Part shown: positions 39,306-57,654 of the stretch, one piece after another | How positions within the stretch are numbered: position 1 is the stretch's first letter | Layout: every line of letters begins with the position of its first letter | Assembly: GCA_964291655.2 (NCBI GenBank) | Contig: OZ219802.1 | Span: 1,824,001-1,888,000 of the forward strand | Source of the DNA: Chloroflexota bacterium | GTDB taxonomy: Bacteria > Chloroflexota > UBA11872 > VXOZ01 | Direction of reading: 5' to 3' | Length of the DNA: 64,000 nucleotides | Notes under the pieces: generated by a model | Seen by the model: only the letters and a program-made list of their open reading frames with translations | What the model was told of the DNA's origin: nothing | Databases searched by the model: none | Program-made: the position numbers and the translations under genes

Positions 39306-39671
39306 GTGACCCAAAACCAGAAGCACGCCAAGAGCCTCTACGCCGATCTCCTCACCGAGCAGGAACTGGCAGCGCTGGAGCGCACCGCCGACAATCCCCT
39401 GCTCCAGGACGAGATTGGCCTGCTGCGCATGCTCATCCGCCGCATCGCAGCCCAGTTGCTCACCGCCGAAGACGATGAACGCGCGCCGGCGGACAAGATC
39501 AAGGCGGTCAAAGACCTGACGGACATCCTCCTCAACGCCCTGAAGGCGCGCCACCAGCTCTCGCCCCGAGCGGAAGACAACCTGACTGAGGCGATGCGTC
39601 AGGTGGTTGCCGAGATCGAATCGCTGGAACGACAGGAAGAGAAAGCGCAGGAACACCACCATGCTGAATGA
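39306..39671 (+). CDS. Putative terminase small subunit-like protein
   Basis: NQKHAKSLY..LQDEIGLLRMLI helical protein upstream of TerL; GTG start chosen. Confidence 0.55.
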   Translation: MTQNQKHAKSLYADLLTEQELAALERTADNPLLQDEIGLLRMLIRRIAAQLLTAEDDERAPADKIKAVKDLTDILLNALKARHQLSPRAEDNLTEAMRQVVAEIESLERQEEKAQEHHHAE

Positions 39672-39903
39672 AACACCGACACAGACGCCCAGGCAGCACG
39701 ACGCGCACTTCCACAAACTGGCAGACGATCTGGACCGGCACGGCTGCGCTTTCGGCCAGGTGACGCGCGAGTTGGCTGAGAACACGCGGGAGGACTATGC
39801 CCGGCTGGAAGCCAAGATCAACATCATCCTGATCGGCATCTTTGCTTCGCCGTTTGCCGCGGCTTTTCTCAACGGCATCCTCCGCAGCGTGCCGGGCCAG
39901 TAG
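39661..39903 (+). CDS. Small coiled-coil plus C-terminal TM protein (holin/XhlA-like topology)
   Basis: YARLEAKINIILIGIFASPFAAAFLNGIL; start overlaps previous gene. Confidence 0.5.
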   Translation: MLNETPTQTPRQHDAHFHKLADDLDRHGCAFGQVTRELAENTREDYARLEAKINIILIGIFASPFAAAFLNGILRSVPGQ

Positions 39904-39919
39904 AGGCGCACATTCTTAT

Positions 39920-41476
39920 ATGAAGACGAACGTTCAAGCAAAGCAGCGTGAGTGCCGCGAGAGCGGCACATTCGGCCTATCCGAGCCATCTCGCGGAGAA
40001 GAACCGGACTCGCTTGCCCGTACCTTCTTCCGCTACACCCTCAGCGACATTGCCTATTTTTCCCGTGTGCTCGTGGGGCGGCCTTTGCGGTCCTACCAGT
40101 TGGCGGTGGCACGGGCGGTGCTTGCGAGTGTGCGGCAACGTGAAGGGGCAATCTTCACCGTAGAGATGGCGCGGCAGATGGGGAAGAACGAGCTATCCGC
40201 TCATCTGGAAGCCTACCTGTTGTATCGCCATCAACAGCGCGGCGGCACTATCGTCAAATGCGCGCCCACGCTCAGCCCCCAGACCCTTGTCTCCCGCCTG
40301 CGCCTTGAATCCGTGCTGGACCGTCCCTGGCTGGCGCCCTATTGGCAGCGCGCCCACGGCTACATGGTCGCGGTCGGCAAGGCGCGGGTGATGTTCCTCT
40401 CAGCCCACGAGCAGTCCAATGTCGTCGGCGCGACTGCCGATCTGCTGCTGGAAGTCGACGAAGCTCAGGACGTGGACGAGGAGAAATTCGCCAAAGAATT
40501 CCTGCCCATGGCGACGGCGCAGAATGCCACCATCGTGCTCTACGGCACGCCCTGGACGCAAGACACGCTCCTCGCCAAGTACAAGGCGCTGAACCTCGCG
40601 CATGAAGAAAACACCGGCGAGCGGCGGCACTTCTCGTTTCCGTGGCAGGTGGGCGCGCGGGAAAATCCGCGCTACGGCGCGGCGGTTAAGGCGCAGATTC
40701 GCCAGCGCGGGGAGGACGACCTGGTCATCCGCACCCAGTACTGCCTGGAGGAAGTGGACGACGCCACGGGCTTTTTCACCCCGCCGCTGCAGGCGGCCCT
40801 GCAAGGCACGCACGCGCGACAGCAGCAACCGCAGGCGGATGCGCATTACGTGGCAGCCGTGGACGTGGCCGGCGAGGATGCTGTTGGGGCAAATCAACAA
40901 GGCCGTCAGTCGCGGCGCGACAGCACGGTGGTCTTGATCGGCGAGCGAATCTGGCGGCACGACCCGGTGTTGGGGTTCGCCCTGCCCGCGGTCAACGTGG
41001 TGAATGCCTACCAGTGGACCGGCCTGCCCACCACCGAGCAGTACGCCCGCCTCGTGCGCTTGCTCGGTGAAGAGTGGCGGGTGCAACGGGCAATGACTGA
41101 CGCCACCGGCATCGGAGATGCACTGGCGCGTTTCTTGCAAGCGCGGCTGGGTGAGGACCGCATCGAGCCGTTTACGTTTACGGCGCAATCTAAGAGCGCC
41201 TTGGGCTACGACCTGCGCACCCTCGCCGGCAGCGGACGCCTGCAACTCTGGGCGGATGACGGCTCGGCGGAATACCGGGAGTGCTGGCATCAGGTGCGAC
41301 GCTGCCAATTGGCGCTGCATCCCGGCAACCGGATTGGATTCCATGTACCCGCCGGTCAGGGGCACGACGACTACGTGTCGGCCTTGGCACTGCTCACGCG
41401 CACGGTTGAGGCCGGCGCGCCACCTGCCGTATCGGTCGCGCTGCCGCCGGAAGAGAGGGAGACGGAGGGGTATTGA
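39920..41476 (+). CDS. Phage terminase large subunit
   Basis: ARQMGKNE Walker A, LLEVDEAQD Walker B, YGTP motif, RNase H-like AVDVAG / DATGIG / HDDYV. Confidence 0.88.
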   Translation: MKTNVQAKQRECRESGTFGLSEPSRGEEPDSLARTFFRYTLSDIAYFSRVLVGRPLRSYQLAVARAVLASVRQREGAIFTVEMARQMGKNELSAHLEAYLLYRHQQRGGTIVKCAPTLSPQTLVSRLRLESVLDRPWLAPYWQRAHGYMVAVGKARVMFLSAHEQSNVVGATADLLLEVDEAQDVDEEKFAKEFLPMATAQNATIVLYGTPWTQDTLLAKYKALNLAHEENTGERRHFSFPWQVGARENPRYGAAVKAQIRQRGEDDLVIRTQYCLEEVDDATGFFTPPLQAALQGTHARQQQPQADAHYVAAVDVAGEDAVGANQQGRQSRRDSTVVLIGERIWRHDPVLGFALPAVNVVNAYQWTGLPTTEQYARLVRLLGEEWRVQRAMTDATGIGDALARFLQARLGEDRIEPFTFTAQSKSALGYDLRTLAGSGRLQLWADDGSAEYRECWHQVRRCQLALHPGNRIGFHVPAGQGHDDYVSALALLTRTVEAGAPPAVSVALPPEERETEGY

Positions 41477-41509
41477 TGTGGGATTTGGGTCCTGTCCCAA
41501 TCAACCACG

Positions 41510-56353: not shown

Positions 56354-56374
56354 GCTGTGTTGAATCCACCTACC

Positions 56375-57196
56375 GGTAGGGGCGGTTCGCGAACCGCCCC
56401 TACTACAACCCCACGCAGGGGAGAACCCGATGCCCTACGCTCCGTGTTCGTCATACAGGCGCAGAGTCTGGCCCGAACCCGACTCAGTAATCATATGCGA
56501 CTGTAGCGCGGGGGCTTGTCCCCCGCATCCCTCCTTACAGTGACCCGGCAAACTGGTGTCAGGTACAGAAGGCCTGTGCGCGCTACGCGAACAACCGGTG
56601 CAGGTTGGCCTCGTCAGGAATGCAGACGTGGACAAGGGTACAGTTACTATCCGGTAGCGCAGGTTTGCAACCTGCGGCCCGGCAAAATCCATACCCATGC
56701 ACGCAAGAATCCATCCACCGTAGGGGCGGTTCGCGAACCGCCCCTACTACATCCCACGCAAGGGAGAACCCAAAGTGCTACGCTCCGTGTTCGTCATCCG
56801 GGCGCAGAGTCTGCCTCGAACCCGATTCAGGGCGGTTTGTGAACCGCCTCTACGTCTCAATCCGGCAGCGCAGGCCCTTCGACAAAACCTGTACTGAACT
56901 TGTCGAAGGGCTCATGACACGTTTGCACCCTGCGGCCTGGCAAAATCCATACCCATGCACGCAAGAATCTATCCACCGGTAGGGGCGGTTCGCGAACCGC
57001 CTCTACTGCATCCCACGCAAGGGAGAACCCGATGCCCTACGCTCCGTGCTCGTCATCCAGGCGCAGAGTCTGCCCCGATCCCGACTCAGGGCGGTTCGCG
57101 AACCGCCTCTACTGCATCCCACGCAGGGGAGAACCCGATGCTATACGCTCCGTGCTCGTCATCCAGGCGCAGAGTCTGCCCCGAACCCGATTCAGC
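56375..57196. repeat. Array of GTAGGGGCGGTTCGCGAACCGCCCCTAC units with conserved linkers
   Basis: About four ~110-bp units plus other palindromes; single related copy near 35877. Confidence 0.85.
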
Positions 57197-57405
57197 GTAC
57201 CGAGACGGTGCTGGGCCGCAGCCCAGAGCTTGCCTACGGCGAGCACAGCGAATTGTGCGCTGCAGCCCTACTCGCGCGCTGTTGCGCGGCACATCAGCAA
57301 ATTAGATCGGTCTCACATAGGAATAACTTCGCCAGGAAAAGCCACACCGGTAGCTGCGTGAAGTCAACAGATATACGGTCCACCATTTGTAGAAAGGGGC
57401 AATCC

Positions 57406-57654
57406 ATGCCACAGCGAGCAGAAACGAGAGGCATCACACCCGGGTCCGCCTTGAGCGGCGTACTGCGGGCATTCGACGCGACGAACTGGCAGGCGGACGT
57501 ACAACTGACCGGCTCATTCCCCACGATTCTCACAGGCATCGCAGTAAATCGGGGGCTGGACGCCTCCGCAATCACCGTGGGCCAGCGCTGCATCGTCGTC
57601 TTCAACGACCTGCAGAACCCCAACGACGCCGTGCTCGTGGCGGTATATGTCTAG
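57406..57654 (+). CDS. Small OB-fold spike-like protein (gpV/gp45 N-domain-like)
   Basis: GVLRAFDATNWQADVQL...ITVGQRCIVVF..NPNDAVLVAV pattern; follows hub; AAGGGG RBS. Confidence 0.55.
   Translation: MPQRAETRGITPGSALSGVLRAFDATNWQADVQLTGSFPTILTGIAVNRGLDASAITVGQRCIVVFNDLQNPNDAVLVAVYV

What the first reader, a model, noticed from the sequence alone, without database searches (positions are those of the whole stretch)
39306..57654. Domesticated GTA-like DNA-packaging particle cluster
Seen: eleven co-oriented, uninterrupted ORFs (~9.5 kb coding) in phage morphogenesis order: TerS-like, small TM protein, TerL with intact ATPase and nuclease motifs, portal, protease-capsid, adaptor, closure, two tail-like paralogs, hub, spike. 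No integrase, att/tRNA, replication, recombination or endolysin genes are recognisable on either side. Most spacers are swollen with the host's own repeat arrays, MITEs and ISs, spreading the cluster over ~18 kb. Known: this gene-content profile characterises gene transfer agents (RcGTA, BaGTA, VSH-1). Inference: long chromosomal residence with selection on the proteins, i.e. a host-owned particle of a distinct lineage in a probable Chloroflexota genome.
Basis: partly seen in the sequence, partly recalled or inferred. Interest (0 to 1): 0.92.

Follow-up and report, generated by a model that had tools for sequence, protein, structure and literature searches.

The report
Domesticated phage particle genes, Chloroflexota
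A set of eleven phage head, DNA-packaging and short-tail genes sits as a permanent, inherited and selected part of the chromosome in a whole genus of uncultured Chloroflexota, which makes it a strong candidate for a new kind of gene transfer agent.

Summary
Window 39177-57654 carries eleven intact, co-oriented phage morphogenesis genes: TerS-position protein, small membrane protein, TerL, portal, protease-capsid fusion, adaptor, head-tail joining candidate, two tube-fold paralogs, gp27-like hub and spike-like protein. IS elements and multi-copy repeats separate them. Flanks are housekeeping genes; no integrase, tRNA, replication or lysis gene was found.

The domestication reading passes the tests I could run. 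The capsid gene is single-copy in 16 of 16 species of the genus. In 14 of 14 full relative loci the order LexA, cluster, host genes is kept. A portal+capsid tree recovers the rpoB clades. Median dN/dS is 0.07-0.24, against 0.05-0.14 for host genes. An AT-rich non-coding element upstream of the first gene is 90-99% identical in 14 of 14 relatives. In a sister family the genes lie in at least three loci up to 1.7 Mb apart, among housekeeping genes.

Against: 4 of 15 loci carry broken genes, no tape measure or lysis gene is present, and there are no expression or particle data.

Verdict: a vertically inherited, selected, non-mobile phage-derived particle system. It is most likely a GTA-like agent of an independent lineage. 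Gene transfer itself is untested.

The parts
38989..39119 (+). Conserved AT-rich non-coding element (core 39008-39096, containing the palindrome TTGTAAAATTACAA). Candidate promoter/operator of the cluster.
   Evidence: The core is 89.8-98.9% identical in 14 of 14 relatives and unique in the genome. It sits at a near-constant distance of about 185 nt from p1 in 10 of 12 loci compared, but a variable 25-750 nt from LexA. It is the only non-repeat conserved non-coding block in 36.6-59.2 kb. No Rfam match.
39177..39671 (+). p1, a helical protein in the small-terminase position. The true start may be near 39273-39282.
   Evidence: No Pfam, PHROG or PDB match. Intact in 15 of 15 loci, dN/dS 0.16. 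Homologs lie upstream of TerL in distant loci L124, L054 and L048.
39661..39903 (+). Small protein of about 80 aa with a C-terminal hydrophobic helix. It overlaps the end of p1.
   Evidence: Translation. Found in 11 of 11 relatives at 70-88% identity. dN/dS 0.20.
39920..41476 (+). Large terminase (TerL). The ORF opens at 39842.
   Evidence: phrog_5909 3.2e-07. PDB profile hits to terminase nuclease domains 5tge, 5m1q and 5m1f at E 1.2e-3 to 1.9e-3. Invariant GKNE, DEAQD, YGT and GHDD columns. dN/dS 0.105.
42214..43452 (+). Portal protein.
   Evidence: phrog_10963 5.4e-39; Phage_portal 8e-05, below Pfam's cut-off. dN/dS 0.068.
43847..44446 (-). Conserved antisense gene, HicB/UPF0150-like, specific to this genus.
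   Evidence: UPF0150 7e-07. Found in 11 of 11 relatives at 66-87% identity on this strand, against 40-60% for the opposite frame.
45580..47187 (+). IS transposase (DDE_Tnp_1_6 type) inserted in the portal-capsid spacer.
   Evidence: 27 tblastn hits in the genome, about 99% identical. Same family as 36883-38481. Absent at this site in G008.
47240..49234 (+). Prohead protease-scaffold-major capsid fusion protein.
   Evidence: Phage_capsid_4 1.2e-45, Mu-like_gpT 1.5e-08, phrog_4523 'major head and protease' 2.4e-70, phrog_15531 protease at residues 26-294. dN/dS 0.148.
49525..50718 (-). IS481-family transposase in the capsid-adaptor spacer.
   Evidence: rve, LZ_Tnp_IS481. 46 tblastn hits in the genome, many 100% identical.
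50966..51622 (+). Head-to-tail adaptor.
   Evidence: SU10_adaptor 2.8e-06, 28.4 bits against a cut-off of 27. dN/dS 0.130.
52154..52525 (+). p6, a candidate head-tail joining (closure) protein. The ORF opens at 52058.
   Evidence: Only a language-model lead to a cluster in which 28% of members carry Phage_H_T_join_3, score 0.93. No PDB profile hit. dN/dS 0.236.
52531..52938 (+). p7, a tail-tube-fold protein.
   Evidence: AlphaFold model, pLDDT 82.8. Foldseek hits: pyocin R2 baseplate 6u5b_g at 7.9e-04, other baseplate and tube chains, Hcp, lambda gpV. In BFVD: tail tube and Dit-like N-terminal proteins.
53379..53816 (+). p8, a paralog of p7.
   Evidence: 32% identity to p7. Aligned with p7 in A3. 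A single copy in other families.
54392..56353 (+). p9, a tail hub: N-terminal beta-propeller plus a gp27/Mu gp44/VgrG-like hub.
   Evidence: The model is weak (pLDDT 55.7). The top Foldseek hits are nevertheless consistently hub proteins: 7aef_q 6e-11, Mu gp44 1wru 4e-10, pyocin hub 6u5h_A 1e-09. Sialidases and lectins match the N-terminal part. The columns of an SxDxGxxW motif are invariant or nearly so.
57409..57654 (+). p10, a small spike-like protein.
   Evidence: Language-model lead to a cluster in which 24% of members carry Phage_base_V, score 0.91. It follows the hub in distant loci L054-56, L069 and L124. dN/dS 0.119.
35101..36694 (-). Host flank: LexA (36044-36694) and a sigma-70 family gene (35101-35787), divergent from the cluster.
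   Evidence: Peptidase_S24 + LexA_DNA_bind; Sigma70_r4. Single copy in the genome. In this position in 11 of 11 fetched loci.
59084..60220 (-). Host flank: class-V aminotransferase.
   Evidence: Aminotran_5 2.5e-28. Downstream of the cluster in 7 of 11 fetched loci.

Best explanation
This is a domesticated, vertically inherited, non-mobile set of phage genes that builds a DNA-packaging particle with a short, tape-measure-less tail. It is a GTA-like element of a lineage independent of the known ones.

Proposed working, with shown and inferred steps marked:
1. A single conserved AT-rich promoter/operator upstream of p1 switches the set on. The conservation is shown; the role is inferred.
2. The portal and the protease-scaffold-capsid fusion assemble and mature a procapsid. 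The families are shown; the process is inferred.
3. p1 and TerL cut and pump DNA into it. The TerL motifs are shown; p1 acting as TerS is inferred from position only.
4. The adaptor and p6 close the head.
5. One or two rings of the tube-fold proteins p7 and p8, a gp27-like hub carrying a beta-propeller, and a small spike form a stubby tail that binds a cell-surface glycan. The folds are shown; the assembly is inferred.
6. Release needs lysis functions encoded elsewhere. None was found here.

The element has no integration, replication or lysogeny genes. In a sister family its genes are scattered over the chromosome. It therefore cannot propagate as a virus, and the DNA it packages is most likely host DNA.
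For: **Fixation.** The capsid gene is single-copy in 16 of 16 species of the genus, in 9 of 9 species of a second family's genus, 1 of 1 of a third family and 7 of 14 of a fourth. It was found in 0 of 38 and 1 of 19 (weak) in two further families of the class.

**Synteny.** sigma-LexA-p1...p10 is kept in 11 of 11 fetched loci. All eleven genes were located in 14 of 14 full relative loci.

**Co-divergence.** The portal+capsid tree recovers all four well-supported within-genus rpoB clades and the genus split at 100/100, with similar branch lengths.

**Selection.** Median pairwise dN/dS is 0.068-0.236 for all eleven genes, and the largest single pair is 0.40. Host genes: LexA 0.121, sigma 0.138, aminotransferase 0.106, rpoB 0.048. 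dS is 0.50-0.92 in the cluster against 0.31-0.98 in host genes.

**Integrity.** All eleven genes are intact in 11 of 15 complete loci, including this one.

**Regulation.** The 89-nt non-coding core is 90-99% identical in 14 of 14 relatives and unique in the genome.

**Dispersal.** In genome G020, TerL lies at 1.25 Mb between guaA and an M50B peptidase. p6-p7 lie at 2.889 Mb between ComEA-like/Nth genes and an iron transporter. Portal-capsid lie at 2.92 Mb between MutL/Uma2 and FakA/ValRS. All frames are open. The same split is seen in G026 and G038.

**No phage life-cycle genes or tRNA** in the window.

**Distance from phages.** The best cultured phage capsid is 30.5% identical, and all 136 matching records are below 60%.
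Against: - No expression, particle or packaging data exist. No RNA run could be examined.
- 4 of 15 complete loci carry lesions: G007 in TerL, capsid and hub; G006 in adaptor and hub; G013 in capsid; G005 in p7. At least G007's are real mutations, a 4-bp insertion and a nonsense substitution. The element is therefore dispensable in some lineages.
- In the closest relative, G008 (70 contigs), hub and adaptor were not found, although controls matched. Deletion and an assembly gap cannot be told apart.
- In this genome two IS elements and repeat arrays split what is a tighter gene set in relatives. Only one conserved promoter-like element was found, so expression here may be impaired.
- No tape measure, tail chaperone, sheath, holin or endolysin gene is present.
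- The hub was not found in the sister families, so their sets may be incomplete or may use another protein.
- p1 has no recognisable TerS signature.
- The p9 model is of low confidence.
Confidence: 0.68

Rival explanations
1. It is a domesticated particle with a use other than gene transfer. One option is a PBSX-like killer or competition particle. Another is a particle whose production serves DNA release, biofilm or defence. Packaged DNA would be incidental.
For: The same evidence of fixation and selection applies, and none of it speaks to the benefit. The hub carries a sialidase/lectin-like beta-propeller, which would fit surface binding for any purpose. The 2024 review passages read say the physiological role is debated even for proven GTAs.
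Against: TerL, with invariant ATPase and nuclease columns, and the portal are under the strongest constraint (dN/dS 0.105 and 0.068). This points to DNA packaging as a selected activity. No sheath or other killing device was seen.
Confidence: 0.2
2. It is a fixed defective prophage remnant with no present function, kept by chance or by linkage to LexA.
For: Broken genes in 4 of 15 loci. IS and repeat invasion of the spacers. No lysis gene and no tape measure gene.
Against: Neutral decay over dS of 0.5-0.9 would not leave eleven open frames in 11 of 15 species with dN/dS of 0.07-0.24. It would not preserve an 89-nt non-coding element at 90-99% identity. It would not keep isolated TerL, portal-capsid and p6-p7 loci open in another family.
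Confidence: 0.06
3. It is an active or recently active temperate phage that integrates site-specifically next to lexA.
For: True temperate relatives of this family exist. IMG/VR contig L072 (82.9 kb) carries a 41%-identical capsid next to a serine recombinase, an S24-HTH repressor, a helicase and a methylase. In the sister genus a tRNA-Lys lies about 400 nt upstream of the portal in 3 of 3 loci examined, which could be an old attachment site.
Against: No integrase, repressor, replication or lysis gene, and no tRNA or att-like flank here. Present in 16 of 16 species, one copy each. The gene tree matches rpoB. The genes are split over three loci in the sister family.
Confidence: 0.03

Closest known systems
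RcGTA of Rhodobacter capsulatus and RcGTA-like clusters of Alphaproteobacteria
   Same: A chromosomal head, packaging and tail cluster without integration or replication genes. It is vertically inherited across a large clade and under purifying selection, with lineage-specific loss or decay. Part of this comparison rests on my recall of the RcGTA literature and on the abstract starts listed.
   Different: No sequence relationship was detected. The capsid profile does not hit the RcGTA virion entry 6TBA at E <= 1, and the p7 model matches chain 6tba_50 only at E 0.22. Here the protease is fused to a Mu gpT / Phage_capsid_4-type capsid. There is no tape measure or tail chaperone. The tail is minimal. 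The host phylum is Chloroflexota.
VSH-1 of Brachyspira hyodysenteriae
   Same: A GTA outside Alphaproteobacteria. A reference title seen (Stanton et al. 2009) describes its genome as divided. This parallels the split TerL, portal-capsid and p6-p7 loci in the sister family.
   Different: Unrelated host phylum. As I recall, VSH-1 carries lysis genes in its cluster. No sequence comparison was made here.
Mu-like and other siphoviruses with a fused protease-capsid gene, such as Microcystis phage Mae-JY22
   Same: The closest cultured-phage capsid, at 30.5% identity over 96% of the protein. The TerL-portal-capsid order is shared.
   Different: Mae-JY22 is a complete 41-kb phage with a tape measure-like protein, Gam and a methylase. 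The window element has none of these and is fixed in the host chromosome.
IMG/VR contig IMGVR_UViG_3300049215_000802 (L072), an uncultured temperate phage
   Same: TerL, portal and capsid homologs, with the capsid 41% identical over residues 12-460.
   Different: It carries a serine recombinase, an S24-HTH repressor, a replication-relaxation protein, a helicase and a methylase. It shows what the free-living ancestor type looks like.

Membership tests
Gene transfer agent (functional class) | Phage-derived capsid, portal, terminase and tail genes encoded in the host chromosome | tested here: met
   Pfam and PHROG matches, fold matches, TerL nuclease profile hits.
Gene transfer agent (functional class) | No capacity for self-propagation: no integrase, replication or lysogeny module | tested here: met
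   No tRNA. Pfam on 30 flanking ORFs across the window gave only housekeeping genes and IS transposases. Small ORFs were not all scanned.
Gene transfer agent (functional class) | Vertical inheritance with the host at a fixed locus | tested here: met
   16 of 16 species. Synteny in 11 of 11 fetched loci. Trees congruent with rpoB.
Gene transfer agent (functional class) | Purifying selection on the structural genes | tested here: met
   Median dN/dS 0.068-0.236 for eleven genes. Nei-Gojobori pairwise estimates only, with no likelihood codon model.
Gene transfer agent (functional class) | Particles package essentially random host DNA, in pieces too small to carry the element itself | not testable with these tools
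   No particle, virome or read-coverage data were examined.
Gene transfer agent (functional class) | Transfer of packaged DNA to recipient cells | not testable with these tools
   ComEC and DprA homologs exist in the genome, but they are also present in 10 of the 14 control genomes.
Gene transfer agent (functional class) | Expression under host control | tested here: inconclusive
   One strongly conserved non-coding element lies upstream of p1. No regulator was identified. No LexA-box excess.
RcGTA-like GTAs | Homology of the capsid and other head-tail proteins to RcGTA genes | tested here: not met
   The capsid profile does not hit 6TBA chains at E <= 1. The Pfam family is Phage_capsid_4 / Mu-like_gpT.
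RcGTA-like GTAs | Tape measure protein and tail assembly genes between the tail tube and the distal tail genes | tested here: not met
   Between adaptor and hub, the only ORFs with coding-like composition (GC3 filter) are p6, p7 and p8, of 123-145 aa.
Functional temperate prophage | Integrase, att sites (often at a tRNA), repressor switch, replication and lysis modules | tested here: not met
   An XRE-type HTH gene (58132-58503) follows p10 but is missing from at least one relative locus, L019.
Tailocin (phage tail-like bacteriocin) | Tail genes only, with no capsid, portal or terminase | tested here: not met
   Capsid, portal and TerL are present and constrained. No sheath gene was found.

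The most novel reading that the evidence does not exclude
An ancient GTA-type particle system, independent of the known GTA lineages, is native to several families of Chloroflexota. The capsid family was found in 75 of 401 sampled genomes and is near-fixed in some families, for example 24 of 30 in one.

It would build a minimal tail without a tape measure. It would be controlled from one ultra-conserved AT-rich operator. In some families its genes have dispersed around the chromosome while staying functional.

It would move host DNA between cells in dense, uncultured populations.
Probability: 0.45. Interest if true: 0.85.

Novelty: new member of a known kind. Interest (0 to 1): 0.74.

Why it matters
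Proven GTAs come from a handful of lineages. The 2024 review passages I read name Alphaproteobacteria, Bartonella, Brachyspira, Desulfovibrio and Methanococcus. The review asks outright what the true prevalence of GTAs is and whether the distant ones have homologs across their clades. 'Chloroflex' occurs 0 times in its text.

A phage-derived packaging particle that is fixed, selected, co-diverging and partly dispersed in Chloroflexota would add an independent domestication in a new phylum. It would do so with comparative evidence as good as that used for RcGTA-like clusters. It also offers a minimal tail architecture and a sharply defined candidate operator to work on.

One relative locus (L051) comes from a record titled Thermoflexus hugenholtzii JAD2. 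As I recall, that species has been cultured, so a bench test may be possible.

It also warns that virus-prediction pipelines file fragments of this chromosomal cluster as viral contigs. 11 of the 12 IMG/VR matches come from contigs of 4.4-17 kb. The one I annotated beside its cluster genes, L068, showed no phage life-cycle gene in the single flanking ORF scanned.

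Tried and rejected
**LexA control.** A Gram-positive-type SOS box recalled from memory (GAACNNNNGTTC, one mismatch allowed) gave 18 matches in the window against 22.2 expected, and none in the LexA-p1 spacer. No support.

**Promoter and terminator scan of 38600-58500.** 5 promoter-like sites against 3.5 expected, and 13 terminator-like against 14.8 expected. 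Uninformative.

**Alignments of the 160 nt upstream of ten genes across 12 loci.** Only ribosome-binding-site-like purine runs were conserved, with no shared promoter motif.

**Operator in the sister genus.** I looked for the genus's palindrome upstream of the three sub-loci of the sister genus. None was found.

**Profile searches of the PDB.**
- p9, p7/p8, p6 and p1 gave nothing credible. The Ika4/Ika8 hits for p7/p8 are designed propellers matched over 33 residues.
- The capsid profile gave only weak Mu GpT-type hits.

**Rfam on 38700-39400.** No match.

**Hub in other families.** The hub alignment A2 found nothing in five genomes of three other families or in G008. The alignment itself had no positive control. 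The single hub protein did match G001 and G004 but not G008.

**Expression.** No RNA holder was listed for the capsid gene. Read laying was not used. Some runs listed as 'sponge metagenome' hold small shares (0.17-0.36) of the capsid words.

**Literature.**
- 'gene transfer agent' with 'Chloroflexota' (15 papers) and with 'Chloroflexi' (36 papers). In the listings and abstract starts, no paper describes a GTA of this phylum. I did not open those papers.
- A further listing was used only to find the review PMC11841831, of which I read nine passages.
- Supplementary files were not consulted.

**Not used.** Complex prediction, the search for homologous proteins, the search of protein representatives and the listing of cluster members. 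The answers did not depend on them.

**Caveat on an earlier run.** The first dN/dS run was distorted. MAFFT drops '*', which put some back-translations out of register. One search repeats it on intact sequences only.

Full report
**What is in the sequence**

Between 39177 and 57654 the + strand carries eleven open reading frames with coding-like codon composition. Family and fold evidence by gene:

| Gene | Coordinates | Evidence |
|---|---|---|
| p1 | 39177-39671 | No match in Pfam, PHROGs or a PDB profile search. 'TerS-like' rests on position alone. |
| Small protein | 39661-39903 | About 80 aa with a C-terminal hydrophobic helix. Its start overlaps the end of p1. |
| TerL | 39920-41476 | phrog_5909 3e-07. 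Profile hits to three solved terminase nuclease domains at E about 1e-3. Invariant columns at the motifs I recall as Walker A-like (GKNE), Walker B (DEAQD), coupling (YGT) and nuclease acidic residues (DVAG, DATG, GHDD). |
| Portal | 42214-43452 | phrog_10963 5e-39. |
| Protease-scaffold-capsid fusion | 47240-49234 | Phage_capsid_4 1e-45; phrog_4523 'major head and protease protein' 2e-70. |
| Adaptor | 50966-51622 | SU10_adaptor 2.8e-06, just over Pfam's cut-off. |
| p6 | 52154-52525 | Language-model lead only, to head-tail joining proteins. |
| p7 and p8 | 52531-52938, 53379-53816 | Paralogs at 32% identity. The p7 model (pLDDT 82.8) has the tail-tube fold. Best matches: baseplate tube-like chains of pyocin R2 and several phages, Hcp, lambda gpV, and Dit-like and tube proteins in BFVD. 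|
| p9 | 54392-56353 | Poorly modelled (pLDDT 55.7). The top Foldseek hits are nevertheless uniformly central hub proteins (eCIS hub, Mu gp44, pyocin hub, VgrG, T4 gp27; E 6e-11 to 1e-7). The N-terminal third matches sialidase/lectin propellers. An SxDxGxxW motif, recalled as the Asp-box, is conserved. |
| p10 | 57409-57654 | Lead to baseplate-V spike proteins. It always follows the hub in distant loci. |

There is no ORF of tape-measure size, no sheath, and no recognisable lysin or holin.

**Surroundings**

The whole window outside the cluster encodes housekeeping functions plus IS transposases. These include SMC, RNase III, RNase Y, FabF, BioY, UbiD, KDPG aldolase, transporters, an aminotransferase and an enoyl-CoA hydratase. 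No tRNA is present.

Immediately upstream, and divergent from the cluster, lie the genome's only LexA gene and a sigma-70 family gene.

The spacers are indeed swollen. In 7 of the 10 spacers scored, 57-83% of the bases occur five or more times in the genome. Two IS elements sit between cluster genes and one between LexA and p1. All three belong to families with dozens of near-identical copies. No insertion interrupts a coding frame.

It is HicB/UPF0150-like, at 43847-44446, and present in 11 of 11 relatives.

**Is it a resident of the host or a visitor?**

*Presence.* The capsid protein finds exactly one locus in each of 16 of 16 species of the genus, at 82-97% identity. In one genome the match is split in two by a frameshift.

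*Synteny.*
- In 11 of 11 fetched loci the order is sigma, LexA, p1 ... p10. The aminotransferase lies downstream in 7 of the 11.
- Three more loci obtained by pattern scan give the same picture, making 14 full relative loci.
- Without IS elements the set spans about 13 kb.

*Phylogeny.* I built an rpoB tree and a portal+capsid tree for the same 21 genomes. They share all four well-supported within-genus clades and the split from the sister genus. Inter-genus branch lengths are comparable.

*Selection.* Pairwise Nei-Gojobori estimates on intact sequences give median dN/dS of 0.068 (portal) to 0.236 (p6). No pair exceeds 0.40. Host genes give 0.048-0.138. Synonymous divergence is in the same range as in host genes.

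This is the signature of a gene set inherited with the chromosome and kept by selection. It is not that of a site-specific prophage or a decaying remnant.

**A conserved control region**

A 131-nt non-coding block lies at 38989-39119. Its AT-rich 89-nt core contains a perfect 14-nt palindrome.
- The core is 89.8-98.9% identical in 14 of 14 relatives, which is better conserved than the coding sequence.
- It is unique in the genome.
- It keeps about 185 nt from p1 in 10 of the 12 loci compared, while its distance to LexA varies from about 25 to 750 nt. It therefore belongs to the cluster.
- It is the only non-repeat conserved non-coding block between 36.6 and 59.2 kb.
- Rfam has no match for it.

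I read it as the promoter/operator of the set. No binding protein is identified.

**Beyond the genus**

*Within the class (98 genomes):*

| Family | Genomes with the capsid family |
|---|---|
| f1 (this genus) | 16 of 16 |
| f2 | 1 of 1 |
| f5 | 9 of 9 |
| f3 | 7 of 14, many of them incomplete MAGs |
| f6 | 0 of 38 |
| f4 | 1 of 19, weak |

*Within the phylum.* In an even sample, 75 of 401 genomes have the capsid family. It is concentrated in particular families (24 of 30 in one, 0 of 25 in others) and usually present as one match per genome. The tally includes one unpublished genome, G132. All 34 hits in the named genome collection carry Chloroflexota or Chloroflexi titles.

*Dispersal in the sister genus.* This is the most telling result. 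The genes are no longer together. In G020:
- TerL stands alone at 1.25 Mb, between guaA and an M50B peptidase.
- p6 and a single tube gene lie at 2.889 Mb, between ComEA-like/Nth genes and an iron transporter.
- Portal and capsid lie at 2.92 Mb, between MutL/Uma2 and DUF433/FakA/ValRS.

All these frames are open. G026 and G038 show the same three-way split, with one TAG inside p6 of G026. A virus cannot be inherited in pieces, but a host function can.

*Other arrangements.*
- One genus has portal and p6 inverted relative to the capsid.
- Compact canonical versions also exist, flanked by host genes. One carries an Amidase_2 gene.

**Relation to real phages**

The nearest cultured phage capsid is that of Microcystis phage Mae-JY22, at 30.5% identity. 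It is a complete 41-kb phage with a tape measure-like gene.

IMG/VR holds 12 relatives. Eleven come from contigs of 4.4-17 kb, and those whose ORFs I mapped hold the same cluster genes. The twelfth (82.9 kb, 41% identity) carries a serine recombinase, an S24-HTH repressor, a helicase and a methylase. It is a genuine temperate relative and a plausible picture of the ancestor.

No relationship to RcGTA proteins was detected.

**Evidence against, and limits**

- Four of 15 complete loci have broken genes, 7 lesions among 165 genes. G007 has three. A 4-bp insertion and a nonsense substitution there are unlikely to be sequencing errors. Function is therefore being lost in some lineages.
- In the closest relative, G008, the contig runs from sigma to the capsid without the IS elements of this genome. 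It then continues with inverted p10 and p8 and ends.
- Hub and adaptor are not found in that 70-contig assembly, although the same queries match other genomes. I cannot tell deletion from assembly failure at repeats.
- The IS insertions here are thus recent. Because only one conserved promoter-like element exists, they may impair expression in this particular genome.
- The hub was not found in the three other families tested.
- No expression data could be obtained.
- Packaging of host DNA and transfer to recipients, the two properties that define a GTA, are untested.

**Verdict**

The domestication inference is supported by every comparative test available. The element works like a GTA in all respects that sequence can show, and it is not a member of any described GTA family.

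| Reading | Probability |
|---|---|
| Selected, host-owned, phage-derived DNA-packaging particle | about 0.85 |
| That particle with gene transfer as its activity | about 0.45-0.5 |
| Another use for the particle | about 0.2 |
| Functionless remnant | about 0.06 |
| Active prophage | about 0.03 |

Noticed in passing
window 43847-44446 (- strand): A HicB/UPF0150-like gene sits antisense between portal and capsid. It is conserved in 11 of 11 genus relatives, but there is no room for it in other families, where portal and capsid abut. No HicA partner was looked for.
   Followed up: partly
window 58132-58503 (- strand) and 58528-58773 (+): An XRE-type HTH gene (HTH_3 1.6e-08) and a small conserved ORF lie between p10 and the aminotransferase. 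They are present in 6 relative loci and absent from at least one (L019). They could be a regulator of the cluster or an unrelated insertion.
   Followed up: partly
L044 8194-8268, L045 8119-8193, L042 8086-8161: In the sister genus a tRNA-Lys(UUU) lies about 400 nt upstream of the portal, on the opposite strand, in 3 of 3 loci examined. It may be a relic of the original phage attachment site.
   Followed up: no
L125 11030-11692 (G020): A ComEA-like gene (SLBB + HHH), a DNA-uptake component, lies next to the p6-tube mini-locus of the sister genus. This may be coincidence.
   Followed up: no
L127 (G008:C34) 13880-15165: In the closest relative the capsid gene is followed by p10 and p8 in inverted orientation, and then the contig ends. 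Hub and adaptor were not found in that assembly. This is either a rearrangement or a repeat-induced assembly artefact.
   Followed up: partly
L119-L121 (genomes G191, G159, G320): In another Chloroflexota family, portal and p6 are on the opposite strand to the capsid. The p10-like protein there is 198-216 aa and the adaptor 429-439 aa. The arrangement is conserved in three species.
   Followed up: partly
L054 13019-13537: A compact version of the cluster in a distant genus carries an N-acetylmuramoyl-L-alanine amidase (Amidase_2 1.2e-17) between adaptor and hub. The window's cluster has no such gene.
   Followed up: no
window 41500-42200, 44600-45450, 56350-57400: Arrays of short repeats present in tens of copies genome-wide fill the spacers. 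Their translations repeat the same peptide in several frames, which creates long spurious ORFs.
   Followed up: partly
window 26001-30000: AT skew jumps to +0.27 to +0.29 over genes for Mrp/NADH-quinone antiporter-like membrane proteins on the - strand. This is the strongest compositional anomaly in the window.
   Followed up: no
window 20365-21747 and 22011-23393 (- strand): Two adjacent 460-aa solute-binding protein genes (SBP_bac_1) look like a tandem duplication.
   Followed up: no
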